A DNA stretch of 64,000 nt from Nevskia sp. (GCF_021732705.1 NZ_JAKFUM010000006.1:36198-100197), one strand, 5' to 3'; counted from the first letter of the stretch, positions 10,247 to 26,812 are shown. The notes: a model not told the origin generated them from the sequence alone. Numbers and translations: made by a program.

Positions 10247-10588
10247 CTACAGGATCGAGTAGACGACGAAGAAGCCGGTGGTGACCAGCACGGTCATGGC
10301 CGCCAGAAACAGGTATTCGACCGCCGACAGCAGCTGCGCGGTCAGCCGGCGGCTGCTGGTGCGCAGGCCCCAGACGATCAGGTAGCAGCAGATCAGGAAC
10401 ATCAGCGCGTTCAGCGCAAGGACGTCGTCGGCAACGGTCTCGATCTTCTGCGAGCGGCTGAACGCGTTGACGGCGCCGAGCAGGCCGACGCAGATGCCGG
10501 TCATGCTGGTGGCGGCGCTGAGCATCCGTTCGAGGATGCGCTCGTGGCGCGCGTCGTCCTCGGCGCTGATCGGATCGTGCAGGCTCAT
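10247..10588 (-). CDS. Hypothetical small membrane protein (about 3 TM helices)
   Basis: 113 aa with three hydrophobic segments and host-like codons; lies directly downstream of the phosphotransferase gene. Confidence 0.7.
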   Translation of the reverse strand: MSLHDPISAEDDARHERILERMLSAATSMTGICVGLLGAVNAFSRSQKIETVADDVLALNALMFLICCYLIVWGLRTSSRRLTAQLLSAVEYLFLAAMTVLVTTGFFVVYSIL

Positions 10589-10609
10589 CGGCGGCGATCG
10601 GTGCCCGGC

Positions 10610-11692: not shown

Positions 11693-11803
11693 CGGCAGGC
11701 GGGACGGGCAGGGCGCGGCAAGGCGCGGGCAGGCGGCGATGATAGCAATGCCGTTCGGGCCGTCGTGCAGGCGTGTGCAGGGTGCCGCGCCGCTGGCGCG
11801 GGC

Positions 11804-13357
11804 TCAGCGCACGCGGTGCTTGTGCAGATAGACGCGCAGCGCATCGACCGACATCGCCGGCGCGAAATACCAGCCCTGCACGTAGTCGATGCCGAGATTG
11901 GCCAGATATTCGAGCTGCTCGATGGTCTCCACCCCTTCCGCCACCACCTGCAGCTGCAGGCGGCGCGCCATCGCGAGCATGTCGTTGACCAGCCCGGCGG
12001 TGATCGATTCGGTGCCGATCGAATCGATGAAGGCCTTGTCGACCTTCAGCAGATCGAACTTGAACTGAGCGAGATAGCGCAGCGACGAGTAGCCGGTGCC
12101 GAAGTCATCGAGCGCGATGCGGGCACCGCTGCGGCGCAGTGCCCGGATCACCTCGTGCACGGTCTTGTTCGATGCCGCCAGCAGCTCGCGCTCGGTGACC
12201 TTGAACACGAGGCGGCCGGACGAGAACGGCTCGGCGAAGATGTCCTCGATCAGGCTCGGCAGCGTCGCGTCGGTGAAGTGCTTCGGGCTCAGGTTCAGCG
12301 CGATGTAGAAATCCGGGTTTTCCTTCATCACGTCGTGCAGGTCGCTGCGCACGCGCTGCATCAGCCAGTGCGTCATCGGGATGATGAAGCCGGTTTCCTC
12401 GGCCATCGGCACGAAGACGCTCGGCAGGATCATGCCGCGCATCGGATGCTGCCAGCGCAGCAGCGCCTCGGCACCGACCACGCGCAGGCTGCCGGCCGCG
12501 TGGATCGGCTGGTAGTGCACGCGCAGCTCGCCGTTGTCGAGCGCATCGCGCAGCTGCGCGTCCATCGAACGCTCGCGCCGGTCGAGGTGCGACAGCACGA
12601 GGAACAGCGGCAGCGACATCGCCAGACCGAGTGCGACGAACAGCGTCGCGTTTTCCCACCAGCGGTGCAGCATCGCGCCGCGCGGCCCGGTGACCACGGC
12701 GCGGAAGCCATAGCGCTGCGAGACCCGGCTCACGTTCAGGGAATCGCCGTCGTCGACCACTGCGGCACTGCCGGCGCGGGCCAGCACTGCACCGTCCTTG
12801 CGCTCGATCCGCAGCGCCAGGTTGTTCTCGCCGATGGCGTCGCGGATCGGCTCCAGCAGTTGCCGCGGATTCAGCAGCAGATTGACCGCAACCCCGCCGC
12901 TGACGCCGTGGAAGACGATGATCGACACCTCCTGTTCCAGGGTCAGATCCGGCGCGGCGATGTGGATGCCGTCCTGCGGCCAGACCTGATGATCCGGGTT
13001 GGTGATCGTCACCGGGCGCTCGAGGACGCGGACGCTGGTGCATTGCACCGAGCCGTCGTAGATCAGCCCGGCTTCGCGAAAGTACAGGGAGTTGTAGACC
13101 GCCTTGCGCAGGGTTTCGAAGCTGGCCTGCGTGCAGTTGCGGTCGAGATGCGTGGCCAGATCCTGCAGCGTGGATTCGGCGTTGCCGAAGATTTCGTCGG
13201 AGCGGCGTTCGATCAGGCTGGCATAGCTTGCGAGCCGCTGTTCGGCTTCGCGCACGGCCTGACGATAGGTCACGGCGAGGGTCAGCAGCGGCGGCAGGAT
13301 GCCGGCCACCACGGCGGCAATGGCGATCCAGGCCAGCCTTCGTCTGCGCCGCTTCAT
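11804..13357 (-). CDS. CSS-motif/EAL-domain protein (c-di-GMP phosphodiesterase family)
   Basis: TM, periplasmic domain with two Cys, TM, then YQPI, AEALLRW, ALNLS, DDFGTGYSSL, KVD, VAEGVE, QGW. One metal-ligand Glu reads Lys (see findings). Confidence 0.88.
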   Translation of the reverse strand: MKRRRRRLAWIAIAAVVAGILPPLLTLAVTYRQAVREAEQRLASYASLIERRSDEIFGNAESTLQDLATHLDRNCTQASFETLRKAVYNSLYFREAGLIYDGSVQCTSVRVLERPVTITNPDHQVWPQDGIHIAAPDLTLEQEVSIIVFHGVSGGVAVNLLLNPRQLLEPIRDAIGENNLALRIERKDGAVLARAGSAAVVDDGDSLNVSRVSQRYGFRAVVTGPRGAMLHRWWENATLFVALGLAMSLPLFLVLSHLDRRERSMDAQLRDALDNGELRVHYQPIHAAGSLRVVGAEALLRWQHPMRGMILPSVFVPMAEETGFIIPMTHWLMQRVRSDLHDVMKENPDFYIALNLSPKHFTDATLPSLIEDIFAEPFSSGRLVFKVTERELLAASNKTVHEVIRALRRSGARIALDDFGTGYSSLRYLAQFKFDLLKVDKAFIDSIGTESITAGLVNDMLAMARRLQLQVVAEGVETIEQLEYLANLGIDYVQGWYFAPAMSVDALRVYLHKHRVR

Positions 13358-13468
13358 TCTCCTTCTGGACTCCGTGAAAGGTTTGGGTTCGAACCACCGT
13401 CGAACACGGCATTCCGTCGTCCCGACACGATATCGTCGGCAGCCGCCGGGAGCCAGCGTTGCCCGTGC

Positions 13469-14308
13469 CTAGCGGGTGTGGTCACTGTCACCGGCGGCAG
13501 CAGGCGGGGGATGACCGGGGCCGTGATGGTGCTTGGCATCCTCCTTGTCCTGCAGCGCGCCGCGCAGCTGATCGACGTTCTCGCGCAGGATGTCGGCCAC
13601 CAGTTCGTCGGTGCGCGGGTCGGCCAGCACCTCGTGCGCGAGGCTCAAGCCGGCATCGATGACGCTGGCGACGATGTCGTTGTAGAACGGCAGCCGGCTC
13701 AGCGTCTTGGTGCGCGGGTTCTGCTTCAGCTTCTCGGCAATCATCGCCCGCAGCTCGCGATCGTTCTCCTCCAGCGCCCGGGCAATGTTGCGGGTGTAGG
13801 TGCCCTTCTTCAGCACGTCCGACACTTCGGCCAGCACGGCGAGGGTGATCATGCCGCCGATCGCCCGCATGATCGCGTCCTTGAAGCGATTGACCAGGCG
13901 GTAGGTGAATTCGTCGCCCAGCGCGCGGTCGGCGGCCATGCCGAAGCGCGACAGCAGGATCACGATGCGGATGACGCGGAACAGCCGGAAGCCGCGCAGC
14001 GCGGGCTCCGACACCGGAATCATGCCGAGCACTTCGTACCAGTTGCGCGCGAGGTAGCCGCGGGTCCAGCCGACGGCCTGCCAGCGCCACAGGAATTCGG
14101 CGGCGAAGATCGCGCAGATCGCGTAGTCGGCGCGGATCAGCAGGCGACTCTGTTCCGGCGTCACATTGCCCCAGGTCTCGTAGCTCAACAGGCCGATCGA
14201 GATCAGCGCAAGGATCAGCAGCAGCCAGTCGAGCAGCGGCACGCGCGCCATCATGCCGGGCGCGGGCGGGGCCGGTGCGGCGGAGGATTCCGGGGTGCGA
14301 TCGGTCAT
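13469..14308 (-). CDS. Ion-transport family protein containing only a voltage-sensor-like S1-S4 domain plus a helical C-terminus
   Basis: S2 DYAICAIFAAEF, S3 NWYEVLGMIP, S4 LRGFRLFRVIR. No S5-P-S6 or TVGYG filter. Confidence 0.75.
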   Translation of the reverse strand: MTDRTPESSAAPAPPAPGMMARVPLLDWLLLILALISIGLLSYETWGNVTPEQSRLLIRADYAICAIFAAEFLWRWQAVGWTRGYLARNWYEVLGMIPVSEPALRGFRLFRVIRIVILLSRFGMAADRALGDEFTYRLVNRFKDAIMRAIGGMITLAVLAEVSDVLKKGTYTRNIARALEENDRELRAMIAEKLKQNPRTKTLSRLPFYNDIVASVIDAGLSLAHEVLADPRTDELVADILRENVDQLRGALQDKEDAKHHHGPGHPPPAAAGDSDHTR

Positions 14309-14463
14309 CGGGAGCGAAGGGTTCGGAGCAGGCGGGCGGACCTGACGAGTGTATGCAAGCGCCTGCCGGAATTCGCCTGCCGCAGCCGTTGCGGCCATGC
14401 ACGGCGAGATGCGGCACGGCACCGTGCCTTGACAGCCGGCAGCGCGCGCCACGAAATGCCGGC

Positions 14464-15390
14464 ATGAACACCGAAACGCCGCTGTGGATCACGCATCCCG
14501 CCTGCACGCTGCACGAGATGGGGCCGTCGCATCCGGAATCGATCGCGCGTCTGCATGCGATTCAGGACCGGATGATCGCCAGCGGCCTGCTGCCGATGTT
14601 CCGGCCGCTGACCGCGCCGTTGGCGCCGCGCGAGGCGCTGGTGCGCGTGCATGACGAGCGCCTCGTCGATGCGCTGCTGGCGGCCAAGCCGACCGAGGGC
14701 TACATCCGCGTCGATCCCGACACGGCGCTGAACGCGCACAGCTCGGAAGCGGCGCAGGCGGCGGCCGGTGCCGTGATGCTGGCGGTCGACGAGGTGCTGG
14801 CCGGCCGCGCGCATTTCGCGTTCTGCGCGGTGCGGCCGCCCGGTCATCACGCCGAGCGTCGTCGGGCGATGGGCTTCTGCCTGTTCGACAGCATCGCCGT
14901 CGGCGCGGCGCACGCACTGGCCTGCGGGCTGGCGCGCGTCGCGATCCTCGATTTCGACGTGCACTACGGCAACGGCACCTCGAACATCTTCCGCGACGAC
15001 CCGCGGGTGATGGTCTGCAACACCTATCAGGACCCGTTCTACCCCGGCTGGGTCAGCGATCCGGACCGCCCGCACATCGTCGATGCGCCGCTGAAGCGCG
15101 GCGACGGCAGCGCCGAATTCCGGGCAGCGGTCACTTCGCGCTGGCTGCCGGCGCTCGAAGCGTTCGAGCCGCAGCTGATCCTCGTGTCTGCCGGCTTCGA
15201 TGCCCATGCCGCCGATCCGCTGGCCGGGTTGCAGCTCGGTTACGCCGACTACGCCTGGATCGGCGACCAGATTCGCGGCTGGGGCGAGCGCTGGAGTCAG
15301 GGCCGCGTCGTGGCATCGCTCGAAGGCGGCTACGACCTGCATGCGCTGGCCCGCTCGGTCGAGGAATTCGTCAGAGCGTCCGCGTTCTGA
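14464..15390 (+). CDS. Histone deacetylase-family (AcuC/AphA-like) deacetylase
   Basis: HPES, RPPGHHA, GFCLF, DFDVHYGNGT, SAGFDAH, LEGGY. Confidence 0.92.
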   Translation: MNTETPLWITHPACTLHEMGPSHPESIARLHAIQDRMIASGLLPMFRPLTAPLAPREALVRVHDERLVDALLAAKPTEGYIRVDPDTALNAHSSEAAQAAAGAVMLAVDEVLAGRAHFAFCAVRPPGHHAERRRAMGFCLFDSIAVGAAHALACGLARVAILDFDVHYGNGTSNIFRDDPRVMVCNTYQDPFYPGWVSDPDRPHIVDAPLKRGDGSAEFRAAVTSRWLPALEAFEPQLILVSAGFDAHAADPLAGLQLGYADYAWIGDQIRGWGERWSQGRVVASLEGGYDLHALARSVEEFVRASAF

Positions 15391-15782
15391 GCCATTCGCG
15401 GGCGATAGTGCCCGGACATCGAAAGATCAGGAAAATTTGATTTCCCGGCGACGCGTCGGGTCCTTAATGTCGCGGTATCGGCGAAGGAATCGCCAGACAA
15501 GGATGTTCAACGTGCCGCACCAGCCGATTGCCTGGAGTTTTCGCCGCAACCTGTCCCGTCTGTGTGTCGCCGAGCCCGAAGCCGCCGGTGGCCTCGCCGC
15601 CGCGACCGATCGCGGTGCCGAACCCGATCCACGGCGCAGCGAACGCCAGACCCGGGCCGAGCCGGCCGCCCATGCCGGCGAACGACACCTGCCGCGCGGC
15701 CGCTGAGCTGCAGCCGCGCCTCGCTCGATGATCGATCCGCCGTCACGCCGCGGCGTGACCGCATGAGCCGGCGGCGCGTGCC

Positions 15783-17141
15783 TCAGGCCTGTTCCAGCGC
15801 CGCCTTGCGCTTGCTCAGCAGCAGGACACCGACCAGTACCGCCAGCGTCAGCGCGAAGCCGATTTCGGTCAGCAGATCGTTGCGCAGGGTGCGTTCGAGG
15901 AACCAGAACGCGCCGGCCAGAAACACGAAGCTGCCCAGCGCCAGGTGCACGCGCGGATACCACGGACGGCGGGCGAGGGCGGCCAGCACCGGCACCACGG
16001 CGCAGACCAGCAGCAGCTGGAAGAACTCGATGCCGACATTGAAGCTCAGCAGGCCGATCAGGTTCAGCTTGCTGTCGGCGCCGACGCTTTCAGCCAGCGC
16101 GCCGGCAAAGCCGAAGCCGTGGATCAGGCCGAAACCGAATGCCAGCACCGGACCATGCTTCGCGCGCCGGGTCCTGAGCGCGACGATGCCGACATAGGCG
16201 ATCGTCGCCGCGATCAGCGCCTCCACCCAGTTCGGCGGCGGCGTCACCAGCCCCTGCGAGGCCAGACCCAGCGTGATGCTGTGCGCCACGGTGAACGCGG
16301 TGACCGTGAACGCGAGTTGCTTCAGGTTGCCGGACAGCAGCACCAGCCCGAGCAGGAAGATCAGGTGATCCCAGCCGATCGCGATGTGATGCACGCCGAG
16401 CTTGAAGAATGACCAGACCGTCGGGCTCTGCCGGGTCTGCTCCGGTTGCGCGGCACCGCTGCGCGCGCCGATTTCGAGGACCACCGGGGGGGCGGCCGCC
16501 GGCGCATCAGCCGCCGCCAGCGCCACTTGCGCCGTCGCCGAGGTGATCGCCGGCGGGCCTTCGGCACGCGGCGTGAAATCGGTCATCGACTTCGTGCGGC
16601 TGATCGCCGGCACATCGGACGACACGATCCGGACGCCGGCTGCCGCACTGATCGAAACCTCGCGCCAGCCCAGCCGCTCCGGATTGCCATCGCGATAGGC
16701 CAGTGCGACGGCAGCGTCGGTCAGCGCCAGCGGCGCCTTCATTTTCGCCAGCAGCCGCAGCGTCGTCAGGCCGGATTGGCCGGGCGAGAGCGCCCAGCTC
16801 TGACTTTCCAGTTCCAACGAAAGCGGCTGGCCACCGACCTCGACCACGATCTTGCCCGGCACATCCTTGGCCCAGCGTTCGGCATAGGTCGCCCATTCGC
16901 CATCGGCGATCTCGCCGTTGCCGTCGGTATCGGCTTCGGAGCCGGCTTCCAGCGTCGGGATCTCGGCCAGATCCAGCAGGTAGTCGAGATGCACCTGATC
17001 CGGCGCCACCACGATCGCCGCCTCGCGGTTGAACGCGTTCTGGCCAAGCGGGTGGGCGTGGGCCGTGCCGAAGCCGGCCACGGCAAGGGCTGCGCTGGTG
17101 GCAAGCGCCCGGAGCAGGCGATGGCTGGGGCAGAGGGTCAT
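15783..17141 (-). CDS. HupE/UreJ-family membrane protein with a large exported N-terminal domain
   Basis: Signal peptide ending AHA followed by HPLGQN; C-terminal LGVHHIAIGWDHLIFL, FTVAHSITL, FGFGLIHGFGFAGAL and FNVGIE motifs of the HupE/UreJ_2 type. Confidence 0.82.
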   Translation of the reverse strand: MTLCPSHRLLRALATSAALAVAGFGTAHAHPLGQNAFNREAAIVVAPDQVHLDYLLDLAEIPTLEAGSEADTDGNGEIADGEWATYAERWAKDVPGKIVVEVGGQPLSLELESQSWALSPGQSGLTTLRLLAKMKAPLALTDAAVALAYRDGNPERLGWREVSISAAAGVRIVSSDVPAISRTKSMTDFTPRAEGPPAITSATAQVALAAADAPAAAPPVVLEIGARSGAAQPEQTRQSPTVWSFFKLGVHHIAIGWDHLIFLLGLVLLSGNLKQLAFTVTAFTVAHSITLGLASQGLVTPPPNWVEALIAATIAYVGIVALRTRRAKHGPVLAFGFGLIHGFGFAGALAESVGADSKLNLIGLLSFNVGIEFFQLLLVCAVVPVLAALARRPWYPRVHLALGSFVFLAGAFWFLERTLRNDLLTEIGFALTLAVLVGVLLLSKRKAALEQA

Positions 17142-17161
17142 CGGAATTCTCGAACGTCGGA

Positions 17162-18400
17162 TCAGGGCTTCGGCTTGCCAGCGTTCAGCGAGGTGGTGGT
17201 TCCGGCCTTCAGCTTCTCGAGCGCGTTTTCGCCCAGCGGCTCGCCGGCCGCCAGCGCGGCGTCGTACACGTTCTTGTAGATCGCCTTGCTTTCGCTGTTC
17301 GGACGAATCTCCAGATCGACCGCCGCATACTTCGCCGCGGCGTCGAAATCACCCTTGGCCATCTTCAGGATCGCCAGCGGGCGTACATAGCCGTAGAAAC
17401 CGGTGTTGTAGGACCACTCGTAGAACTTCTCGGCGGCGCGGCGCAGCTGTTTCGCTTCCTTTACGTCGCCGCGGCGTTCGCGCAAGTCGGCCAGTTTCAC
17501 CTGATAGTCCGCGTTCGGCCATTCGGTTTCGATCAAGGCGCGAAGCAGGTCCTCGGCGTCCTGATCGCGGCCTTCATATTGGGCGATGTCCGACAGGCCT
17601 GCCCGGGCTTGCGCGAAGGTCGGTTCCAGATTCACCGCTTCGTTGTAGTACTGCTTGGCAACCGCCAGCTTGCCGAGCTTGGACTGCACGTCGCCCTGCA
17701 CGGAATAGACATAGGCCAGACGCAGGCGTGGCAGCGGCTTCGGGAACCGCGCCTCCGGCGCCCGCTTCAGCAGTTCCGAGGCCTGTTCCAGGTCACCGGA
17801 AATCTCGGCCCAATAGGCGAGGCCGATGAAATTGTTGGGGACGCGGGGTTCGTCGGAAACCAGCTTGCGCAGATAGATCTCGCCAGCGTTCAGATCGCCT
17901 GCCTGCACGGCTGCTTCGCCCGCGATCGCCATCAGGCCCGTTTCGTTCTGGTACTTGCGCAGCGCCTTCTCGGCCACGGCGCGGGCTTCGACGAAACGGT
18001 GCTGTGCCGCCAGCAGTTTGGCACGCGCCGCGAACAGTTCCGGAATGGCGGTGGCGCCGTCTTCGGTGCGGGTGCGGGTCGCAATCAGCGACTCCGATGA
18101 GTCGATCACCGCCATCGCATTGGCGAAGTCGCGCCCGTCAGCCGTGACTTTCGCGCGGTTCAGCATGGCTTCGACCAGCGTCACCGCGTAGTCGAGGTCC
18201 GTGCGCCGCTGCGAGCCCTGCTGCTGCACAAGATCGATCTGGTGATCGAAGTACTTCAGTTTCTTGACGCCGGCGGCATTGATGTACGGCAGCCGCTCAT
18301 TGCCACCTTGCAGGAAGTACCAGGCCGCGCCGGCGAGGCCGATCATGGCCACGACGCCAACGGCGAGCCATCGGAACTTGCGCTTTTCAACAGCCATCAT
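17162..18400 (-). CDS. Membrane-anchored tetratricopeptide-repeat protein
   Basis: Basic N-terminus plus TM anchor; repeated TPR-like helices (AKQYYNEAVNLEPTF, AQARAGLSDIAQYEG). GGAG upstream of the ATG. Confidence 0.8.
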   Translation of the reverse strand: MMAVEKRKFRWLAVGVVAMIGLAGAAWYFLQGGNERLPYINAAGVKKLKYFDHQIDLVQQQGSQRRTDLDYAVTLVEAMLNRAKVTADGRDFANAMAVIDSSESLIATRTRTEDGATAIPELFAARAKLLAAQHRFVEARAVAEKALRKYQNETGLMAIAGEAAVQAGDLNAGEIYLRKLVSDEPRVPNNFIGLAYWAEISGDLEQASELLKRAPEARFPKPLPRLRLAYVYSVQGDVQSKLGKLAVAKQYYNEAVNLEPTFAQARAGLSDIAQYEGRDQDAEDLLRALIETEWPNADYQVKLADLRERRGDVKEAKQLRRAAEKFYEWSYNTGFYGYVRPLAILKMAKGDFDAAAKYAAVDLEIRPNSESKAIYKNVYDAALAAGEPLGENALEKLKAGTTTSLNAGKPKP

Positions 18401-18468
18401 GTGTCTCCACCCGCAGGGCGGGTTTGCTTCGAATTCGGGAAAGATGCCGCGACGCGGCACCGCAAATG

Positions 18469-18503
18469 AAAATGGCGGGAAGAGTACGAAACTCTCCCCG
18501 CCA
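18469..18503 (-). terminator. Intrinsic terminator or attenuator between the DUF4331 and TPR genes
   Basis: Minus strand TGGCGGGGAGAGT-TTCGT-ACTCTTCCCGCCA followed by TTTT: a 13-bp stem with one G-U pair. Confidence 0.7.
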
Positions 18504-18590
18504 CTGTGTCACGCAACTTGTCTCGATGAAACGGTCAGACCAGCGACGTTGCCCTGTTGCCGGCCTGCCGTTTCTCGGTCCGACGCCCGA

Positions 18591-20747
18591 TTACGGGTTG
18601 GTCGGGCCGAAGCCGTTGTCGCCAGCTTCGCCGTGCAGCGGGTTGAAGCCGATGTACGGGAACGTGTTGCGGAGGTGCTGCTGTTCGCTGTTCTGCGTCG
18701 CGACGTTGGCAACATCGCCAGCCGGCTCGATCCAGTCGGTGCCCTGCAGCACCAGGAACACGCGGCTGTCTTCGCACGGGGTCAGCACGTTCAGGCTCAG
18801 ACGGCCGAGCAGGCCATCCGACTCACCCGGACGCAGCAGACCAGCGACGCCACCGTTGATGAGGTTGCCGATCAGGCCGCCGTTCAGGATGCCACCGGCG
18901 ACGTTCAGCTCTTCGCAGTTCACAGCGCGGCGAGCAAAGCCGTTCGGGAACGCAGCGCTCGGCGGCGTCCAGCGCGGACCGGAACCCGGAACCACGTTGG
19001 CGATGCCCGGCAGAACCAGCGTGTCCGGGAACTTCACGTCAGCCGTTTCACGCGTGATGCGAATCACGATGTCGGTGACGTCGTCCGCCGGACGGCGGCC
19101 GTTCTGGAGACCCCACTGGTGCAGAGCCAGCGTCGGCGAGTTGTTGTTCGCCGCGGCGGCGCCCGGACGGGCAGCGCCCGGAGCCGAGTCGAACGTCGTG
19201 TTGAGGTTGATGCGCAGGTAGTCCGGCAGCGCCAGCTGAGCCTGGAGGCGACGGTTCTGGTTCTGGCTGAGGCTTGCGAACTGGCCCTGGTACAGCGGCA
19301 CGCCGTTGATGCCGAAGCTGTTGAAGCCCAGGACGGTCAGGATCGCCTGACGGGCCTGAACGGTGTTGCCACCGCCGATCAGCAGGTTCGACAGACCACC
19401 CAGCAGACCGCCGAGCAGACCACCACCGCTGTTGTTGGCGCCAGCCGGCGTCGGGGTCAGGAAGTCGAGGTACATACGATCCCACAGGCGGAAGTCATGT
19501 TCCGGACCCGTTGCGTTGTGCAGGTCCTTCAGCGTTGCGGTGCTGATCGGGTTGCTGCTGGCCGGGACGGTGACGCCGGTGCCTTCGAAGTCAGCCGGGA
19601 CGAGGTGCGGATACACGCCGTTCGGGTACTGCGCGCTGACCTGCAGCATCGGCTGCTGGAACACGAAGACCGTCGCGGTGATCTGCTGGCCCATGCGCTC
19701 GAACTGGTGCCACGGACCGGTGGCGGTCTGCTGGTAGCCATTGAACGCGGTGGAAGCCGGACGCGACACGGTGCCCCAGGTGCCAATCAGGTTGCCGTTG
19801 ATGGCGCCGCCGAGGCTCTGATCCGGGATGCCCGGGCCACGGAGGAGCGAACCCGGAATCGAAACGGCGAACAGCGAGCCGTTGAAGCCGCCGAAGGTGT
19901 CGATGCCCGAACGGCCGTTGAGCTGGACCGGACGGCCGCGCAGACCGCCGATGATGTCACCGGTGATGCCGCGGAACAGATCCTGCGTGTGGTTCGGCTG
20001 GTTGTCCGAGCCGGTGGTGAACGCCGCCGGAGCGGTCATGCCGGTACGCAGCGACTGCACCGTGCGCGAACGGGCGTTGGCGTTGAGGCCAATGCGGAGA
20101 ATGGCCTGCGTGGCGTCGGTGATGAACGAGTCATCGGCGATGCCGGCGTAGCACTTCACTGTGCCGTTGTCGAAGATGTAGTTGTCCTGCACGTCCGTGC
20201 CGAGACGAGCCGCATTCGGGCTCGAAGCCGAGCTGGTCGCAGCGCCGGTGAAGGCAGTCGGCTGGCCGTTCGTGGTGAACGGAGCGTTCAGCGGCTGGGC
20301 GCAGAGGTTGGTGACGCCCGGGGCGCCTTCGACCAGACGAGTGGTGATCGCCGAGCCGGTGGCCGGGCCGAGCAGCACGCGGTACGGCTGGTTGGGAGCG
20401 CGGTTCGACACGCCAGCGAATTCGACCTGCATCACGAGGTCGGCAGCCGGGCCGTTGGCCTGGTTGTTGTCGATCTGGATCTGGTACAGGAACGGAGCCG
20501 AGAAGCGATACGAGGTAGTCAGACCCGGCGTCGCGAACGGGTTGACCATGCCGGCCAGAATGATGTTGCCGGGACGATCCGGGTCCGGCCAGCCGAACGC
20601 GTCGGTGTAGTCGCCTTCGATTTCCGAGTCGACGGCGAAGGAGTCGCGGTGGTCGGCGCCCATGGCGGCCGGCGCGAAAGCGCCAACGGCCAGGAACGCT
20701 GCGCCAGCGGCGAGCATCCAGTTCTTGCTATTCATCTTGAGTGTCAT
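18591..20747 (-). CDS. Secreted DUF4331-family protein (718 aa)
   Basis: Signal peptide, then ADHRDS...GDYTDAF; DDSFITD, DTFGGFNG, QFERMGQ, QNGRRPADDVTD and C-terminal FPYI motifs as recalled for DUF4331. GGAG upstream of the ATG. Confidence 0.78.
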   Translation of the reverse strand: MTLKMNSKNWMLAAGAAFLAVGAFAPAAMGADHRDSFAVDSEIEGDYTDAFGWPDPDRPGNIILAGMVNPFATPGLTTSYRFSAPFLYQIQIDNNQANGPAADLVMQVEFAGVSNRAPNQPYRVLLGPATGSAITTRLVEGAPGVTNLCAQPLNAPFTTNGQPTAFTGAATSSASSPNAARLGTDVQDNYIFDNGTVKCYAGIADDSFITDATQAILRIGLNANARSRTVQSLRTGMTAPAAFTTGSDNQPNHTQDLFRGITGDIIGGLRGRPVQLNGRSGIDTFGGFNGSLFAVSIPGSLLRGPGIPDQSLGGAINGNLIGTWGTVSRPASTAFNGYQQTATGPWHQFERMGQQITATVFVFQQPMLQVSAQYPNGVYPHLVPADFEGTGVTVPASSNPISTATLKDLHNATGPEHDFRLWDRMYLDFLTPTPAGANNSGGGLLGGLLGGLSNLLIGGGNTVQARQAILTVLGFNSFGINGVPLYQGQFASLSQNQNRRLQAQLALPDYLRINLNTTFDSAPGAARPGAAAANNNSPTLALHQWGLQNGRRPADDVTDIVIRITRETADVKFPDTLVLPGIANVVPGSGPRWTPPSAAFPNGFARRAVNCEELNVAGGILNGGLIGNLINGGVAGLLRPGESDGLLGRLSLNVLTPCEDSRVFLVLQGTDWIEPAGDVANVATQNSEQQHLRNTFPYIGFNPLHGEAGDNGFGPTNP

Positions 20748-20935
20748 GTGTGACTCCGATTGATTTCTGTTCTTCGCCGAGATCCGGCGAAGTCCAACCC
20801 CCATGCCCTGTCCCTGTGCTGACCTCAAATCATCCCCACATCCCGAGGACCGCACCGGCCAAGCTGGGTCACCGCTTTTCCAATCCTTGATTACTGCGTT
20901 GCACCACGAGCGGCAGTCTTTCACCGCTGGACGGC

Positions 20936-20978
20936 AATGTAATTAACGTCCGTCAGGGCAGGAATTGATCAGAATCAA
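20936..20978 (-). promoter_or_regulatory. FNR-type box (TTGAT-N4-ATCAA) with a -10 element at class II spacing, directed toward the DUF4331 gene
   Basis: TTGATCAGAATCAA at 20965-20978 is a perfect FNR consensus. Minus-strand TACATT at 20941-20936 places the box centre at about -42. Confidence 0.7.
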
Positions 20979-21763
20979 GAGTAGTTTGAAAATACCCGCT
21001 CGATTTGTTGCGGGTTTTCAGGCACTTAACTTGCAGGAGTGACGCCGATCAAGCTGGAATACGGCGTCGATCGGTGCGCTGGATCACGGTCGCCAGATTG
21101 TGGATTTGTGACGATTTGCTCGTTTTTGCGGTGCAGCACGAACAAATCAATTCGGACACGGTTTCATGTCGCCCTTTGCAGGGCGCGCCAACGGCCACGC
21201 GGGCTGGTATCGTTTGCATGTTGGTGATGCAGATTTCCAGTCGACTGAGGGTCTGCCAGCGGACAACGATGCACATGCCGAGCGCGCCGTCAGAGCCCGC
21301 CGCAATCCCGGACGGTAATCCTTCTTCCTCCCCCACCGTTTCCCGAGCCGTCGCGTCCCCCTCAGTCGGGGTCGTGGCCAAGTGCTTGTTTTAGGACGGC
21401 TTTCGGAAAGAATCGTGACTGGGTGAACATTGTTCCGCGAACAAGCGCGAAACCAGACTTGAAGTTTGGTGAACAATGCTATTCAAATGTCGGAATGTGG
21501 CGCGGGCTTTGCTGAGTGTTTCGGGCCTGCAGCCGACAGTGAGTTCAGGGAGGCAGCCTGGGAAGCGAAGATGCAGTTTTTCGGGCACCCGCCCGGGAAG
21601 CGGCAGAAGGCCTCCCAATTTTGAAGAATGCAGAACGTGCGGGTGTCTGCTGGCTGCAACGTGCAGTTGGCAGACTTGACGCATGCATCGGGTGGATCAG
21701 TACGCAGGGTCGTCTGGAGTGGCGGCCGTTCGATGCATTTACGGGGAAAGGGGACGTACCAGA

Positions 21764-22441
21764 ATGAGCAAAGTGGAAGAGGTGCACGCCACCCGCGTGT
21801 CGACCAGTCCGTGTTTCGGGCTGTTTGATTCGACGCCGGCGCTGGCTTACGCGGAAGGCACGATCCTGTTCAAGCAGGGTGCCAACGCACGGGATGTCTA
21901 TCTGCTGGAACAGGGCCTCGTGAAGGTGATCTTCCTCGACCCTGGCGGCGAAGAAGTGATCACCCACCTGTGCAGCGCGCCCGGCACGCTGATTGGCGAT
22001 TCCTGCGCCGTGCTGGGCAAGCATTTCGTCTCGGCGGCCGTGGTGACCCGCAACACGCGGATGCGACGCGTGGCGTCGGCGAGCTTCGTCGAACTGATCC
22101 GCACCAATGCCGAGATGTCGTGGCAGCTGCACAAGGCGCATTGCGCGCAGCACTCGGAACTGCTGGACCGCTCGGCCCAGCTCGGTTACCTGTCGGTCCG
22201 CCAGCGCGTCGAACAGCTGATCTGGAATCTGGCCGGCGCCTGCGAACTGGTGCCGACCAGCAAGGGCTTCCGGATGCAGCTGCCGCTGAAGTATCGCGAG
22301 CTGGCGCAGCTGATCACGGTGTCGCCGGAGCATCTGTGCCGCGTGCTCGGCACGATCGAGAAGGAAGGCCTGATCCGTCGCGAGAAGGGCTGGCTGTACC
22401 TGATCGAGCGCGACAAGCGCTACCACCGCCGCGGCGACTGA
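21764..22441 (+). CDS. Crp/Fnr-family transcriptional regulator
   Basis: cNMP-binding beta-barrel (LFKQG, YLLEQGLVKV, LIGD) and C-terminal HTH (ELAQLITVSPEHLCRVL). Start at MSKVEE with GGGGA upstream. Confidence 0.88.
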   Translation: MSKVEEVHATRVSTSPCFGLFDSTPALAYAEGTILFKQGANARDVYLLEQGLVKVIFLDPGGEEVITHLCSAPGTLIGDSCAVLGKHFVSAAVVTRNTRMRRVASASFVELIRTNAEMSWQLHKAHCAQHSELLDRSAQLGYLSVRQRVEQLIWNLAGACELVPTSKGFRMQLPLKYRELAQLITVSPEHLCRVLGTIEKEGLIRREKGWLYLIERDKRYHRRGD

Positions 22442-22469
22442 TCGCCCGATGGCGGTCGCGAACCCGCTG

Positions 22470-22487
22470 CCGATCAGAGTCGATCGG
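22470..22487. terminator. Short hairpin between the convergent Crp/Fnr and selO genes
   Basis: CCGATC-AGAGTC-GATCGG; no clear U-tract. Confidence 0.35.
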
Positions 22488-22529
22488 TGGCGGGGAGCCG
22501 GCGCGACGGCTGTCGAACCGGCATCCGCG

Positions 22530-24005
22530 TCAAGACGAACAGCTGACCTCGATCTGCCGCGCTTCGGGCGGCGGCTCCGCCGCGTAGGCCTCGTGTTCGG
22601 GCTGCTCGTCGAACGGCCGCGACAGCAGCGTGAACAGATGCTCGACCTCGCGGGCATCGCCGGCCTCGGCGCGTTCGATGGCGCGCTGCGCGAGGTGATT
22701 GCGCAGCACGTATTTCGGATTGACCGCGTTCATCCGCGCGGCGCGTTCGCCATCGACACTGCCTTCGGCGCGCAGGCGGGCCTGATAGTCCGGCAGCCAG
22801 GCATCGAATGCGGCGATGTCGGCAATCTCGTCACGCACGAGATCGGCCGACGAACCTTCCGCCGATGACACCGCGGACAGATGCCGCCAGCTGCGCGTGA
22901 AATCGGCGCGACTGCCCTGCAGCAGGCTCAGCCAGCGGTTGATCAGGCCCTCGTCGCCATCCTGCGCGGTCTGCAGCCCGAGCTTGCCGCGCCACGCCGC
23001 AATCATCGCCTCGCCGTAGGCGCGGGCATAGCCATCGGCAATCGGCTGGGCGATTTCGACGGCGGCCTTCGGCTCGCTGGCGAGCAACGGCAGGCAGGCC
23101 TGCAACATTTTGGTGCAGTTCCATTGGCCGATGACCGGCTGCCGATCCCAGGCATAGCGACCGCCTTCGTCGGAATGGTTGCAGATGTGATGGCTGTCGA
23201 AGGCGTCGAGGAAGCCGAACGGGCCGTAGTCGATGGTCAGGCCCAGTGCGGAGAAGTTGTCGGTGTTCATCACGCCATGGCAGAAGCCAACGGCCTGCCA
23301 TTGCGCCATCAGCCGCGCGGTACGGCTGACGACCTCGGTCAGCCATGCCGCGTAGCGATCCGGCCTGTCGGCGAATTCCGGGAAATGCCGTTCGATGACG
23401 TGATCGGCCAGCGGCTGCAGCCGTTCTGGCTCGCCGCGGTAGTACCAGAACTCGAAATGTCCGAAGCGGACAAAACTGGGCGCAACCCGACAGACCACGG
23501 CGGCGGTCTCGATGGTTTCGCGCCGCACCGGCTGCGGCGAGCCGATCAGCGCCAGCGCCCGCGTCGTCGGAATGCCGAGCGCGTGCATCGCTTCCGAACA
23601 CAGGTATTCGCGGATCGACGAGCGCAGCACGGCCCGGCCGTCGGCATGGCGCGAGTACGGCGTCGGGCCGGCACCTTTGAGCTGGATTTCATGGCCGCGG
23701 CCGGCGCGGTCGTCGATTTCCGCAATCAGCAGCGCCCGGCCATCGCCGAGCTGCGGCACGAACTGGCCGAACTGATGCCCGGCGTAGACCGAAGCACGCG
23801 GCTCGAAGCCGGGCCACGGCGCGTTGCCGGCCAGGATCGAGGCGAATTCCGGCGTGGCACGGTCTTCCGGGCCGATGCCCAGTGATTCGGCGAGCGCGAC
23901 GTTCAGGTGCAGCAGCGTCGGCGTCGGCAGCGGCCGGGTCGGGTAGGCAGTGGAGTACGGATCGCCCAGCGCGGCGAAGCGGGGCGTGGTAACGGGCAGG
24001 GTCAT
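22530..24005 (-). CDS. selO: Protein adenylyltransferase SelO (YdiU)
   Basis: YAGHQFG, LGDGRA, QLKGAGPTPYSR, DGRAVLRSSIREYL, HGVMNTDN and C-terminal VSCSS. Confidence 0.95.
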   Translation of the reverse strand: MTLPVTTPRFAALGDPYSTAYPTRPLPTPTLLHLNVALAESLGIGPEDRATPEFASILAGNAPWPGFEPRASVYAGHQFGQFVPQLGDGRALLIAEIDDRAGRGHEIQLKGAGPTPYSRHADGRAVLRSSIREYLCSEAMHALGIPTTRALALIGSPQPVRRETIETAAVVCRVAPSFVRFGHFEFWYYRGEPERLQPLADHVIERHFPEFADRPDRYAAWLTEVVSRTARLMAQWQAVGFCHGVMNTDNFSALGLTIDYGPFGFLDAFDSHHICNHSDEGGRYAWDRQPVIGQWNCTKMLQACLPLLASEPKAAVEIAQPIADGYARAYGEAMIAAWRGKLGLQTAQDGDEGLINRWLSLLQGSRADFTRSWRHLSAVSSAEGSSADLVRDEIADIAAFDAWLPDYQARLRAEGSVDGERAARMNAVNPKYVLRNHLAQRAIERAEAGDAREVEHLFTLLSRPFDEQPEHEAYAAEPPPEARQIEVSCSS

Positions 24006-25273
24006 CGGGATTCGGGGTCGGCGGCATCGCTGCCGACGATCAGACGTGCGGCGCGGCTGTAGCTCAGGTAGTTGAAGAACCATTGTGTCGCGACCAGCAT
24101 GCGGTTGCGCGCGCCGATCAGGAAATAGACGTGGGCGATACCCCACAGCCACCACGCGACGAGCCCCTTCATCCGGACGAAGCCGAAGTCGATCACGGCC
24201 GAATGCCGGCCGATGGTCGCCAGATTGCCGAAATCGCGGTAACGGAACGCTTGGGCGGCCGGCTTGCCGGCCAGCGCGGCACGGATCGCCTTCGCCACGA
24301 AATGGCCCTGCTGCTTCGCGGCCGGCGCCACGCCGGGCACCGGCTTGCCGTCCTGCACGACAGCGGCGGTATCGCCGATCACGAAGATGTTCGGCTGGCC
24401 GGGCACGGTCAGATTCGGTGCCACCTGCACGCGGCCGGCACGATCGGCCGCCACGCCGAGCCAGCGCGCCGCCGGCGATGCGGCCACGCCGGCCGCCCAC
24501 AGCACGGTGGCGCAGTCCAGCGCGCTGCCGTCGCCGAAGCGCAGGCCGTCGGCATCGCAGCCGGTGACCTTGGTGTTCAGCATCACGTCGACCCCCTTCT
24601 TCTGCAGTTCCGCCAGCGCGAACGCCGACAGCTCGGGCGGGAACGACAGCAGCACGCGATCCGCGCCTTCCACCAGCACGACGCGGACTTCGCGGGTGTC
24701 GATCGCGCGAAAGTCGTGCGCCAGCACTTTCTTCGACAGCTCGGCGATCGCGCCGGCCAGCTCGACACCGGTGGGACCGGCACCGACGATGGCGAACGTC
24801 ATCAGCTTGCGGCGCGCGATCGGGTCGTCGGTGTTCTCGGCGTGTTCCAGCGCCAGCAGCAGGCGCCGACGGATCAGTGTGGCGTCGTCGACACGCTTGA
24901 GACCCGGTGCGTGACGCGCCCAGTGGTCATTGCCGAAGTAGGTGTGGGTCGCGCCGGTCGCCAGAATCAGCCAGTCGTACGGCAGGCTGCGGCCGTCATC
25001 GAGCCGGACTTCGCGCGCGTCGGTGTCGATGCCGACGACTTCGCCAAGCAGCACACGGGCGTTCTTCTGCCGGCTCAGGATGCCGCGCACCGGCCAGGCG
25101 ACATCCGACGGATTCAGGCCGGCGGTCGCAACCTGATACAGAAGTGGTTGAAAAAGATGGAAATTCCGGCGATCGACGACGGTCAGGTCGATCGCCAGGC
25201 CATCCAGCGCGCGAGCGGCGGTGAGGCCGCCAAAACCAGCGCCGACGATCACGATGCGAGGCAGGGAAGTCAT
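24002..25273 (-). CDS. ndh: Type II NADH:quinone oxidoreductase (NAD(P)/FAD-dependent)
   Basis: GAGFGG, FQPLLYQVAT, GAGPTGVELAG, LWAAGV, GD, PGVAPAAKQQG, LATIGR. Confidence 0.88.
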   Translation of the reverse strand: MTSLPRIVIVGAGFGGLTAARALDGLAIDLTVVDRRNFHLFQPLLYQVATAGLNPSDVAWPVRGILSRQKNARVLLGEVVGIDTDAREVRLDDGRSLPYDWLILATGATHTYFGNDHWARHAPGLKRVDDATLIRRRLLLALEHAENTDDPIARRKLMTFAIVGAGPTGVELAGAIAELSKKVLAHDFRAIDTREVRVVLVEGADRVLLSFPPELSAFALAELQKKGVDVMLNTKVTGCDADGLRFGDGSALDCATVLWAAGVAASPAARWLGVAADRAGRVQVAPNLTVPGQPNIFVIGDTAAVVQDGKPVPGVAPAAKQQGHFVAKAIRAALAGKPAAQAFRYRDFGNLATIGRHSAVIDFGFVRMKGLVAWWLWGIAHVYFLIGARNRMLVATQWFFNYLSYSRAARLIVGSDAADPESR

Positions 25274-25371
25274 GGTCAGTCTCTCGAAGAATCGATCGGG
25301 CGTGTCCGGTTCACGGCTGGCCTGAGCATCGCGCACAATCGGCGGCCCATCCCACTGACACTCCCACGCCC

Positions 25372-26785: not shown

Positions 26786-26812
26786 CGTTCCCGATCCGCG
26801 CGTGATCCCGTC

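What the first reader, a model, noticed from the sequence alone, without database searches (positions are those of the whole stretch)
15783..22441. Candidate undescribed system: secreted DUF4331 + TPR + HupE/UreJ operon with a divergent Crp/Fnr regulator
Seen: three co-oriented genes encode a 718-aa signal-peptide protein (DUF4331-like), a membrane-anchored TPR protein and a HupE/UreJ membrane protein with an exported domain; the last two are 20 nt apart. A 1-kb regulatory region separates them from a divergent Crp/Fnr gene. Established: HupE/UreJ proteins are Ni/Co-type permeases or metal-delivery accessories. Recalled, not verified here: DUF4331 co-occurs with TPR and HupE/NiCoT-like genes across phyla and has no assigned function. 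Inference: DUF4331 is an abundant extracytoplasmic metalloprotein (conserved N-terminal His in ADHRD plus acidic motifs), folded or displayed by the TPR protein and metallated through the HupE protein, under low-oxygen control.
Basis: partly seen in the sequence, partly recalled or inferred. Interest (0 to 1): 0.8.

Follow-up and report, generated by a model that had tools for sequence, protein, structure and literature searches.

The report
Secreted DUF4331 protein with metal-permease partners
A highly expressed secreted protein of unknown function (DUF4331), predicted to start with a copper/nickel-binding tip once processed, is encoded in many bacterial phyla next to a TPR adaptor and a metal permease that carries its own metal-catching domain, so the three probably form an uncharacterised metal capture-and-uptake system.

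Summary
On the minus strand lie DUF4331 (18591-20747, 718 aa, Sec signal peptide), a membrane-anchored TPR protein (17162-18400) and a HupE_UreJ_2 protein with an exported N-terminal domain (15783-17141). A Crp/Fnr gene lies divergently.

The recalled co-occurrence is real. Of 46 related loci with enough downstream DNA, 44 have the TPR gene and 37 also have the permease, in the same order. Full triads occur in annotated Nostoc, Streptomyces, Marinobacter and Comamonadaceae replicons.

New points:
1. In every subfamily examined, DUF4331 is predicted to mature to X-[D/S]-His. That is an ATCUN Cu(II)/Ni(II) motif.
2. The conserved part of the third gene is its exported domain, which starts at His1. 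Its membrane part swaps between HupE_UreJ_2 and NicO. This architecture was published in 2025 as "anglerase" permeases that bind Cu and Ni.
3. A high-confidence DUF4331 model has no PDB fold relative.
4. A perfect FNR box and a -10 element are conserved upstream, and an intrinsic terminator is conserved after DUF4331. RNA contigs cover DUF4331 almost exclusively, at high depth.

Best reading (about 0.4): DUF4331 is an abundant extracytoplasmic metal-capture protein that hands Cu or Ni to the permease, docked by the TPR protein. The metal, the direction of transfer and any enzymatic role are untested.

The parts
20965..20978 (-). Perfect FNR/Crp-family box, TTGATTCTGATCAA as read on the gene strand. 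Its centre is about -42.5 from the predicted transcription start.
   Evidence: It is the only perfect TTGAT-N4-ATCAA in the 64-kb window; 0.52 matches with up to 1 mismatch are expected by chance. A perfect box at the same distance from the gene is present in L001, L060/L061 and L062.
20936..20946 (-). Conserved -10 region (TTAATTACATT), always 18 nt after the box. The predicted transcription start is near 20929.
   Evidence: The 18-nt spacing and the TTAATTACA core are identical in four lineages, while the flanking intergenic DNA has diverged.
20915..20915 (-). Observed 5' end of the RNA contigs.
   Evidence: Contigs of two RNA runs end exactly here. In X26 the contig runs straight into Illumina adapter sequence.
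18591..20747 (-). DUF4331 gene, 718 aa. The product is secreted and the mRNA is abundant.
   Evidence: PF14224 E 2.9e-26. There are 36 close homologues and 1429 wider ones. RNA contig depth is 15-55 over 18567-20915 in four runs.
20658..20747 (-). Sec-type signal peptide of DUF4331 (aa 1-30). Predicted cleavage is A-M-G|A-D-H.
   Evidence: Homologues show a hydrophobic core and small residues at -3 and -1 (A or G at -1 in 92/92). No twin-arginine motif was found.
20649..20657 (-). Codons for Ala31-Asp32-His33, the predicted mature N-terminus X-X-His (ATCUN Cu(II)/Ni(II) motif).
   Evidence: [AS]-D-H-R-[DE] directly follows the cleavage site in 152/154 homologues. Nostoc has S-D-H and the Pseudoalteromonas, Streptomycetaceae and Marinobacter subfamilies have S-S-H. 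His33 is the only family-wide invariant His.
18471..18505 (-). Intrinsic-terminator-like hairpin (15 bp, 8 G-C pairs, then a U-rich tail) between DUF4331 and TPR.
   Evidence: Found. The region folds with z = -4.6. The same GGCGGGGAGA... stem with a T-run lies at the same place in L001, L060 and L062. RNA coverage stops at about 18567.
17162..18400 (-). TPR protein, 412 aa from ATG 18400, with an N-terminal membrane anchor (FRWLAVGVVAMIGLAGAAWYF) and a periplasmic TPR domain.
   Evidence: TPR_2, TPR_19 and TPR_14 hits. It lies directly downstream of DUF4331 in 44/46 loci. 56 orthologues show mostly TPR-type conservation, plus H154 in 54/56.
15783..17141 (-). Anglerase-type permease: signal peptide, exported domain starting at His1, Ala/Pro-rich linker, HupE_UreJ_2 membrane domain.
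   Evidence: PF13795 E 1.1e-40 at aa 245-391. The architecture matches PMC12537917.
16527..17054 (-). Exported N-terminal domain (aa 30 to about 205), beginning A-H-A|H-P-L-G. It has no Pfam model.
   Evidence: This is the part conserved across loci (42/59 loci). 1798 cluster representatives match it. Of 150 top hits, 128 have HPLG and 13 have HPMG. Invariant residues are H1, P2, G4, D28, A30, E31, G129, W130 and E132. No Pfam family matches at E<=1.
16896..16931 (-). EF-hand-like loop DTDGNGEIADGE inside the exported domain.
   Evidence: The domain profile matches only EF-hand proteins in the PDB, and only through this loop. The family consensus is D-x-D-G-D-G.
21683..22441 (+). Divergent Crp/Fnr-family regulator. 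The likely true start is M28 at 21764.
   Evidence: cNMP_binding and HTH_Crp_2 hits. It scores below the cut-off of every named NCBIfam subfamily. Orthologues at 77-80% identity sit divergently next to DUF4331 in L001, L060 and L062.

Best explanation
The locus encodes a three-part extracytoplasmic metal (Cu(II) or Ni(II)) capture-and-uptake system. DUF4331 is exported by the Sec pathway, and signal peptidase leaves Ala-Asp-His as its free N-terminus, an ATCUN site on a large domain of unknown fold. It is made in large excess over its partners, because a class-II FNR-type promoter drives it and a conserved terminator follows it. It acts as the metal-catching component. The membrane-anchored periplasmic TPR protein docks it at the inner membrane. 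The third protein takes the metal on its own tethered His1 ('anglerase') domain and passes it through its HupE_UreJ_2 channel. Shown here: the gene content, the conserved synteny, the conserved predicted N-termini, the swapping of the membrane module, the promoter and terminator conservation, and the RNA abundance. Inferred: metal binding by DUF4331, the identity of the metal, the direction of transfer, and the docking role of the TPR protein.
For: Synteny: 44/46 loci have TPR and 37/46 have TPR plus a His1-domain permease, in the same order and strand. Full triads occur in annotated Nostoc punctiforme, Streptomycetaceae, S. anulatus, Marinobacter adhaerens and Comamonadaceae replicons. ATCUN register: His is the third residue after an AxA-type cleavage site in 152/154 homologues and in all four more distant subfamilies sampled, and it is the only invariant His. 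Partner: the conserved element of gene 3 is the exported His1 domain, fused to HupE_UreJ_2 in 26 and to NicO in 60 of 93 top full-length homologues. Both membrane families are annotated as Ni/Co transporters. Domains of this architecture bind Cu2+ (about 70 nM) and Ni2+ (220 nM) and were proposed to feed the permease (PMC12537917). In three loci a TonB-dependent receptor, an import device, replaces the permease. An extracellular or surface location is suggested by an adjacent class F sortase in Streptomycetaceae and adjacent type II secretion genes in Paracoccus and Jannaschia. Stoichiometry: the conserved terminator and the RNA depth of 15-55 on DUF4331, against 0-2.6 on TPR and the permease.
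Against: No metal-binding experiment exists for any DUF4331 protein, and signal-peptide cleavage is only predicted. A 480-720-aa domain with about 28 family-wide invariant residues (many Asp and Arg, e.g. GRRxxDD) is more than a metal-catching tip needs, and suggests an enzyme or a specific ligand binder. Cu(II)-ATCUN sites are usually much tighter (established chemistry) than the roughly 70 nM measured for mono-His-brace domains, so downhill transfer of Cu(II) to the permease is not obvious. No metal-responsive regulator or riboswitch was found, and no Ni-, Co- or Cu-dependent enzyme gene lies among the Pfam-scanned flanks, roughly 1-15.4 kb and 22.5-34.3 kb. Some NicO-family members are exporters (RcnA). 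Contig depth is a poor measure of expression.
Confidence: 0.4

Rival explanations
1. DUF4331 is an extracytoplasmic metalloprotein or metalloenzyme, and the permease and TPR protein exist to metallate and mature it. Metal moves out of the cytoplasm, or is handed over in the periplasm, to DUF4331, which is the end user.
For: The globular domain is large and strongly conserved, with many invariant charged residues. It has no PDB fold relative despite pLDDT 91, so its activity cannot be read from known folds. Sec export means the protein must acquire metal outside the cytoplasm. Some NicO-family members are exporters (established knowledge: RcnA). DUF4331 is far more abundant than its partners, as expected for a client and its maturation factors.
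Against: TonB-dependent receptors, which only import, replace the permease in L002, L003 and L006. HupE/UreJ proteins and the published anglerase model point to uptake (PMC12537917). His33 is the only invariant His and there is no conserved Cys or Met ligand set, so a catalytic metal site beyond the N-terminal tip is not evident.
Confidence: 0.2
2. The system buffers or detoxifies metal. DUF4331 is an abundant periplasmic or surface sink for Cu(II)/Ni(II), and the permease (HupE- or RcnA-like NicO) moves metal out to it.
For: ATCUN sites sequester Cu(II)/Ni(II) tightly (established chemistry). Expression is high. The NicO family includes the RcnA efflux pump.
Against: The locus has no metal-sensing regulator of the CueR, CsoR, RcnR or NikR type, and control is Crp/Fnr-type. 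One binding site per 70-kDa protein is an expensive sink. The TonB-receptor variants do not fit export.
Confidence: 0.1
3. DUF4331 has a function unrelated to transition-metal trafficking, for example a secreted hydrolase, adhesin or Ca2+-dependent binding protein. On this reading the conserved His is structural or catalytic inside the fold, and the TPR protein and permease serve another role.
For: Acidic motifs are conserved (D46, D49, D93, D103, D555, D556, D671), and the partner carries EF-hand-like loops. Both fit Ca2+. In the plasmid sample, some DUF4331 genes lack the partners or sit beside type II secretion genes. The Marinobacter copy lies beside phosphatase genes.
Against: This reading does not explain why His is always exactly the third residue after the cleavage site across subfamilies only 19-43% identical. 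It also does not explain why the partner always begins with His1 and carries a Ni/Co-type transporter module.
Confidence: 0.2

Closest known systems
Anglerase-HupE/UreJ-2 permeases, Ang-1 and Ang-2 (Franco Cairo et al., Nat Commun 2025, PMC12537917; structure 9GCE)
   Same: The third gene has the same architecture: signal peptide, mature His1, an exported domain of about 175 aa, a flexible linker, and a C-terminal PF13795 membrane domain. A DUF4331-linked HupE protein of Pseudoalteromonas weakly matches DUF6702, the related 'sequesterase' fold.
   Different: The window's exported domain has no detectable sequence similarity to any PDB chain, 9GCE included, and no Pfam model. It carries an EF-hand-like loop. 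It is fused to NicO-type membrane domains more often than to HupE_UreJ_2, a combination the paper does not mention. The paper does not discuss DUF4331 or TPR partners; DUF4331 appears only as 2 counts in a supplementary neighbour table.
Canonical HupE/UreJ nickel permeases of hydrogenase and urease clusters (PF04955)
   Same: The membrane domain is related (PF04955 E 2.7e-7, 30.7 bits against a cut-off of 23), and the mature N-terminus is a His.
   Different: The window protein belongs to the HupE_UreJ_2 family and has a large extra exported domain. No hydrogenase or urease genes lie among the Pfam-scanned flanks, roughly 1-15.4 kb and 22.5-34.3 kb. Its partners are DUF4331 and TPR.
CopC/CopD (YcnJ) with YcnI, and PCuAC-type periplasmic copper chaperones
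   Same: In both cases an extracytoplasmic protein with an N-terminal His brace hands metal to a membrane importer encoded in the same operon. This is an analogy drawn from established knowledge.
   Different: There is no sequence or domain relationship. DUF4331 is five to seven times larger and carries an X-X-His motif rather than His1. A TPR component is present.
Secreted protein metal scavengers that work with receptors (HasA haemophore with HasR; MopE/CorA copper-binding proteins of methanotrophs)
   Same: An abundant secreted or surface protein captures a metal or cofactor and delivers it to a dedicated membrane receptor. The TonB-receptor variants L002, L003 and L006 fit this logic.
   Different: No homology exists. 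Metal binding by DUF4331 is only predicted.
ATCUN (NH2-X-X-His) sites, e.g. serum albumin Asp-Ala-His
   Same: The predicted mature N-terminus is Ala-Asp-His, with a free amine, a non-Pro residue at position 2 and His at position 3.
   Different: ATCUN is a motif, not a protein family. Here it would sit on a conserved bacterial secreted domain, and the flanking Arg-Asp/Glu is also conserved, which is more than the motif requires.

Membership tests
DUF4331 (Pfam PF14224) | Match to the family profile above the gathering score | tested here: met
   93.1 bits against a cut-off of 27, E 2.9e-26. All 36 close homologues carry PF14224.
HupE_UreJ_2 (Pfam PF13795) | Match to the family profile above the gathering score in the membrane part | tested here: met
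   139.4 bits against 24.5, aa 245-391.
Anglerase-permease (PMC12537917) | Signal peptide followed immediately by His as the first mature residue | tested here: met
   The window has A27-H28-A29|H30-P31-L32-G33. HP[LM]G follows the signal peptide in 141 of 150 relatives. Cleavage is predicted, not measured.
Anglerase-permease (PMC12537917) | Exported domain of about 175 aa, flexible linker and C-terminal HupE/UreJ-2 transmembrane domain | tested here: met
   The domain spans aa 30 to about 205, the Ala/Pro-rich linker about 205-244, and PF13795 aa 245-391.
Anglerase-permease (PMC12537917) | Homology of the exported domain to Ang-1 (9GCE) or Ang-2 | tested here: not met
   No PDB chain matches at E<=1 with the protein or at E<=10 with a 25-sequence profile, except EF-hand loops.
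Anglerase-permease (PMC12537917) | Cu2+/Ni2+ binding by the His1 domain | not testable with these tools
   Needs purified protein (thermal shift, EPR).
ATCUN motif | Free N-terminal amine, His at position 3, no Pro at position 2 | tested here: inconclusive
   The sequence register is met in 152/154 homologues plus four other subfamilies. The actual mature N-terminus depends on a predicted signal-peptidase cut.
Canonical HupE/UreJ nickel permease system | Genomic association with hydrogenase or urease genes | tested here: not met
   No such genes lie among the Pfam-scanned flanks, roughly 1-15.4 kb and 22.5-34.3 kb, or in related loci.
FNR (oxygen-sensing Crp/Fnr subgroup) | N-terminal Cys cluster plus a central Cys that ligate a [4Fe-4S] cluster | tested here: not met
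   There is no CX2CX5C cluster. The conserved Cys residues are scattered. The score against the NCBIfam Fnr model is 18 bits against a cut-off of 228.
Crp/Fnr superfamily regulator | cNMP-binding-like sensor domain plus C-terminal Crp-type HTH | tested here: met
   PF00027 E 5e-11 and PF13545 E 8e-9.
Single polycistronic operon of three genes | Co-transcription without internal terminators | tested here: inconclusive
   A conserved terminator hairpin follows gene 1. RNA contigs cover gene 1 at depth 15-55 and genes 2-3 at 0-2.6. Genes 2 and 3 are 20 nt apart and may depend on read-through.

The most novel reading that the evidence does not exclude
DUF4331 is a new-fold extracellular metalloenzyme. 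On this reading its catalytic centre is Cu or Ni held by the processed N-terminal X-X-His tip, a counterpart of the His-brace of LPMOs or the Ni-hook of NiSOD. It is served by a dedicated TPR adaptor and an anglerase permease that supply or recycle the metal, and it is switched on by a Crp/Fnr regulator together with low-oxygen respiration.
Probability: 0.12. Interest if true: 0.85.

Novelty: new variant of a known kind. Interest (0 to 1): 0.62.

Why it matters
DUF4331 is a large family. More than 1400 clusters were retrieved from one short homologue alone, spread over at least six phyla, and no paper in the searchable library mentions it in its main text. Here it is among the most highly transcribed genes of its genome region in environmental RNA.

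This work links it to a concrete, cheap-to-test hypothesis: an ATCUN tip, a TPR adaptor and a His1-domain permease. That turns a 'domain of unknown function' into an experiment. It also extends the anglerase concept, published only in 2025, to NicO-type permeases and to a three-component system. If confirmed, it would add a protein-based route of Cu/Ni acquisition in soil and water bacteria such as Acidobacteriota, Streptomyces and Nostoc. It would also provide a new fold for structural biology.

Tried and rejected
- **AF2 of the window protein.** With the 29-sequence alignment it gave pLDDT 55, and its Foldseek hits were meaningless. It was replaced by the 489-aa homologue P0029 with 142 sequences (pLDDT 91), which still found no PDB relative (best TM < 0.15).
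- **Second homologue search.** Repeating the search with the alignment added almost nothing, probably because Gly/Leu-rich inserts saturate the word index.
- **Riboswitches.** Rfam at a permissive threshold found no riboswitch (NiCo, cobalamin or other) in 15000-23000, only one chance-level sRNA hit.
- **Sigma-70 consensus scan.** It found no promoter. The promoter was found through the FNR box and phylogenetic footprinting instead.
- **PDB sequence searches.** DUF4331 and the permease returned nothing.
- **Fourth gene of relatives.** The small Cys-rich secreted protein of L060 and L062 was looked for in the window and in L001, and is absent from both.
- **Literature.** Searches for DUF4331, PF14224 and HupE_UreJ_2 returned no papers.
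- **Sigma-54 promoter.** I considered one at the conserved TTGC, but there is no GG element at -24.
- **HupE membrane domain as the conserved partner.** Rejected. It is found only in the proteobacterial loci, whereas the exported His1 domain is what is conserved.

Full report
**1. What is there**

The minus strand of 15783-20747 carries three co-oriented genes.
- Gene 1 (18591-20747, 718 aa from the ATG of MTLKMNS) matches Pfam DUF4331 (PF14224, E 2.9e-26). It matches no NCBIfam model.
- Gene 2 is a TPR protein. The ORF list starts it at GTG 18460, but an ATG at 18400 preceded by GGAGA is the more likely start. It begins with a positively charged stretch and one hydrophobic helix, so the TPR domain should face the periplasm.
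- Gene 3 (15783-17141, 452 aa) has a signal peptide, an exported domain of about 175 aa, an Ala/Pro-rich linker and a HupE_UreJ_2 membrane domain (PF13795, E 1.1e-40, aa 245-391). Genes 2 and 3 are 20 nt apart.
- A Crp/Fnr-family gene (21683-22441, +) lies divergently, 935 nt from the DUF4331 start codon.
- GC3 of all four genes is 0.80-0.83, like the rest of the window.
- The surroundings are ordinary chromosomal genes: CSS-EAL, HDAC-like, SelO, NDH-2, LolA-like, an MMPL transporter, GreA/GreB-family factor, RuvB and TolQ.
- The closest public genome is a Nevskia sp. MAG (DUF4331 77% identical). Near-identical DNA occurs in drinking-water, wastewater and freshwater metagenomes.

**2. The co-occurrence is real and broad**

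- A motif-seeded scan of one genome per species returned 59 loci. Most are Acidobacteriota, with some Proteobacteria, Binatota-like, Dormibacterota and 'delta' MAGs.
- Among the 46 loci with at least 4.5 kb downstream of DUF4331, 44 have the TPR gene directly downstream. 37 of these also have a third gene homologous to the window's gene 3, always in the same order and on the same strand.
- Three exceptions (L002, L003, L006) carry a TonB-dependent receptor in the third position.
- An independent, annotated sample came from tblastn against plasmids and chromids, which hit 62 records. I inspected ten:
  - Full triads: Nostoc punctiforme pNPUN01, a Streptomycetaceae plasmid (with a class F sortase inserted and gene 3 annotated 'nickel transporter'), S. 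anulatus, Marinobacter adhaerens pHP-187 and a Comamonadaceae plasmid. In the last two the 'hypothetical' middle genes are TPR proteins by Pfam.
  - Pseudoalteromonas has DUF4331 with a HupE/UreJ gene behind an ECF sigma/anti-sigma pair.
  - Miltoncostaea has DUF4331 and TPR followed by a transposase.
  - Paracoccus and Jannaschia have DUF4331 beside type II secretion genes.
  - One short Streptomyces copy stands alone.

**3. What is conserved in gene 3 is the exported domain, not the HupE channel**

- BLASTP between the window protein and the acidobacterial third genes aligns only residues 5-189 (31-33% identity, E about 1e-22). The membrane parts do not align.
- An iterated search finds this N-terminal domain in 42 loci. 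The window's membrane domain is found only in L001.
- The acidobacterial, Nostoc and Streptomyces versions carry a NicO (PF03824) membrane module instead.
- A full-library phmmer search with the window's residues 28-200 found 1798 cluster representatives (905 at E<=1e-10), always with the domain at the N-terminus.
- Of 93 full-length top hits, 60 carry NicO and 26 carry HupE_UreJ_2.
- In every case the signal peptide ends AxA and the next residues are H-P-[L/M]-G-N, so His is the first mature residue.
- Invariant positions are H1, P2, G4, D28, A30, E31, G129, W130 and E132.
- A canonical EF-hand loop (DTDGNGEIADGE in the window) is inserted between strands. It is the only part that matches anything in the PDB.
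- One metal-tip domain swapped between two unrelated transporter families, both annotated for Ni/Co, is strong circumstantial evidence for a metal-handling role.

**4. This architecture is already published**

- Franco Cairo et al. (Nat Commun 2025, PMC12537917) searched for proteins with a His directly after the signal peptide. They described 'anglerases' Ang-1 (Pseudomonadota) and Ang-2 (Actinomycetota).
- These are beta-sandwich domains of about 175 aa with a mono-histidine brace, joined by a flexible linker to HupE/UreJ-2 permeases.
- They bind Cu2+ (Kd 62-74 nM), and for Ang-1 also Ni2+ (220 nM). The authors proposed that they fish metal ions and feed them to the permease.
- The window's gene 3 fits that architecture. 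Its exported domain shows no sequence similarity to the solved Ang-1 structure or to any Pfam model, so it is at best a further clade.
- The NicO fusions are not mentioned in the paper. DUF4331 appears there only as two counts in a supplementary neighbour table.
- 'DUF4331', 'PF14224' and 'HupE_UreJ_2' occur in no main text of the searchable library.

**5. DUF4331 itself**

- All homologues have a Sec-type signal peptide, and none has a twin-arginine motif.
- Directly after a cleavage site with A or G at -1 and a small or aliphatic residue at -3 comes [A/S]-D-H-R-[D/E] in 152 of 154 sequences.
- The more distant subfamilies keep the register. Nostoc has ALA|SDH. Pseudoalteromonas, Streptomycetaceae and Marinobacter have xxA|SSH.
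- The predicted mature protein therefore begins X-X-His, the amino-terminal Cu(II)/Ni(II) (ATCUN) motif. This His is the only His invariant across the family.
- The Pfam model also starts exactly at this motif.
- The rest of the protein is strongly conserved, for example D46, T48, D49, Y88, D93, D103, Q348, R351, G550-R-R-x-x-D-D556 and D671. A conserved Cys pair is present in the long forms.
- The window protein has Gly/Leu-rich insertions that modelled poorly (pLDDT 55).
- The 489-aa homologue P0029 with a 142-sequence alignment modelled well (pLDDT 91, pTM 0.88). It shows a beta-rich N-terminal half and a helical C-terminal half. The segment around the cleavage site and the tip is the only low-confidence part.
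- Foldseek against the PDB found nothing (no hit at E<=1e-3, TM < 0.15). No solved structure explains the fold.
- The sortase signal in Streptomycetaceae and the type II secretion neighbours in Rhodobacterales suggest a surface or extracellular location.

**6. Regulation and expression**

- The only perfect TTGAT-N4-ATCAA in the window lies at 20965-20978.
- In four lineages (window; L001; L060/61; L062; DUF4331 47-77% identical) a perfect box sits 215-230 nt upstream of the start codon. Exactly 18 nt later comes TTAATTACA, while the rest of the intergenic DNA has diverged.
- With TACATT as the -10 hexamer, the box is centred at about -42.5, the geometry of a class II FNR/Crp-dependent promoter. 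The transcription start is then predicted near 20929.
- The divergent regulator is 77-80% identical in the four lineages. It probably starts at M28 and has an E...R recognition helix like FNR-type proteins. It lacks the FNR Cys cluster and reaches no NCBIfam subfamily cut-off.
- In the 50%-identical relatives this regulator is followed by cydAB (cytochrome bd), then SelO and NDH-2. The window has SelO and NDH-2 but no cydAB.
- The link to low-oxygen respiration is therefore suggestive only. Outside this group the regulators differ: ECF sigma, other Crp proteins, two-component systems.
- No riboswitch was found.
- Between DUF4331 and TPR lies a 15-bp G+C-rich hairpin followed by a U-rich tail (18471-18505). 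The same stem sequence with different loops occupies the same place in L001, L060 and L062.
- Public RNA runs contain this gene. In four of them, contigs cover 18567-20915 at word depth 15-55 (4-6 in the two shallower runs). TPR, the permease and crp are at 0-4.
- Two runs end exactly at 20915, one running into adapter sequence. That is 14 nt inside the predicted start, a plausible loss at a cDNA 5' end.
- Across the other 35 kb examined, genuine contigs are mostly below depth 5. Only about 36.9-38.2 kb (within the tol gene region; product not identified here) is comparable.
- Contig depth is a crude measure. Still, together with the conserved terminator it indicates that DUF4331 is made mainly as an abundant monocistronic mRNA, with TPR and permease expressed at a much lower level, probably by read-through.

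**7. Mechanism**

The best-supported model (confidence about 0.4) is a protein-based metal capture and uptake system.
- An abundant extracytoplasmic DUF4331 binds Cu(II) or Ni(II) at its processed ATCUN tip.
- The membrane-anchored TPR protein brings it to the inner membrane.
- The permease's tethered His1 domain takes over the ion and feeds it to the HupE_UreJ_2 (elsewhere NicO) channel.
- The TonB-receptor variants favour delivery towards the cell.

Against this model:
- Nothing has been measured.
- The large conserved body of DUF4331 suggests more than a metal-catching tip.
- Cu(II) transfer from an ATCUN site to a weaker site is not obviously downhill.

Rivals are metallation of DUF4331 as the end user (0.2), a buffering or efflux role (0.1), and a function unrelated to transition metals (0.2). 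The metal cannot be decided. The transporter families point to Ni/Co, the published His1 domains prefer Cu over Ni, and ATCUN binds both.

**8. Verdict**

- The finding is real and its recalled co-occurrence is verified. Its interpretation is partly right.
- Gene 3 is a new clade or variant of a kind described in 2025. The DUF4331 and TPR partnership, the ATCUN register, the NicO fusions and the promoter/terminator layout are, as far as the searchable literature shows, new.
- I rate it a new variant of a known kind, with interest 0.62. The family is widespread, highly expressed and structurally unassigned, and it now has a direct, inexpensive test.

Noticed in passing
L060:13033-13455 and L062:12867-13307 (absent from the window and from L001): Relatives with 47-50% identical DUF4331 carry a fourth gene after the permease. 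It encodes a 140-146-aa secreted protein made of repeats of C-A-x-[DN]-P-x-x-C, with no Pfam hit. It could be another metal-binding or disulfide-rich partner. tblastn finds no copy in the window.
   Followed up: partly
L060:2617-5172, L061, L062:3992-6384; window 22442-22530: In relatives the orthologous Crp regulator is followed by cydAB (cytochrome bd oxidase), then SelO and NDH-2. The window keeps Crp, SelO (22530-24026) and NDH-2 (24002-25336), but has no cydAB between them.
   Followed up: partly
window 25991-29548 (+): A LolA-like protein is followed by a 911-aa MMPL/RND-type transporter with a C-terminal cyclic-nucleotide-binding domain. This is an unusual fusion that suggests a ligand-gated exporter.
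   Followed up: no
L065:7854-8597; L068 and L072 flanks: DUF4331 is followed by a class F sortase in a Streptomycetaceae plasmid, and the protein ends in a hydrophobic segment plus RRRR tail. In Paracoccus and Jannaschia plasmids it sits inside a type II secretion gene cluster with an A24 prepilin peptidase.
   Followed up: partly
window 13469-14452 (-): A 327-aa predicted membrane protein with good coding signal (GC3 0.86) has no Pfam family at E<=1e-5.
   Followed up: no
window 18264-20753 (+) and 10544-14467 (+): Very long ORFs (829 and 1307 aa) lie antisense to real genes. They did not pass the codon-position coding filter, whereas the genes on the opposite strand did, so they are the usual shadow ORFs of a 66% G+C genome and not genes.
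   Followed up: yes
window 18437-18461 (-): A second short G+C-rich hairpin (GCCGCGUCGCGGC) directly follows the terminator hairpin, ahead of the TPR Shine-Dalgarno sequence. It might modulate read-through or translation of the TPR gene.
   Followed up: no
window 36900-38250: This is the only other region of the about 42 kb examined with RNA contig depth comparable to DUF4331 (depth 23.6 in run X28). It lies within the tol gene region; the product was not identified here.
   Followed up: no
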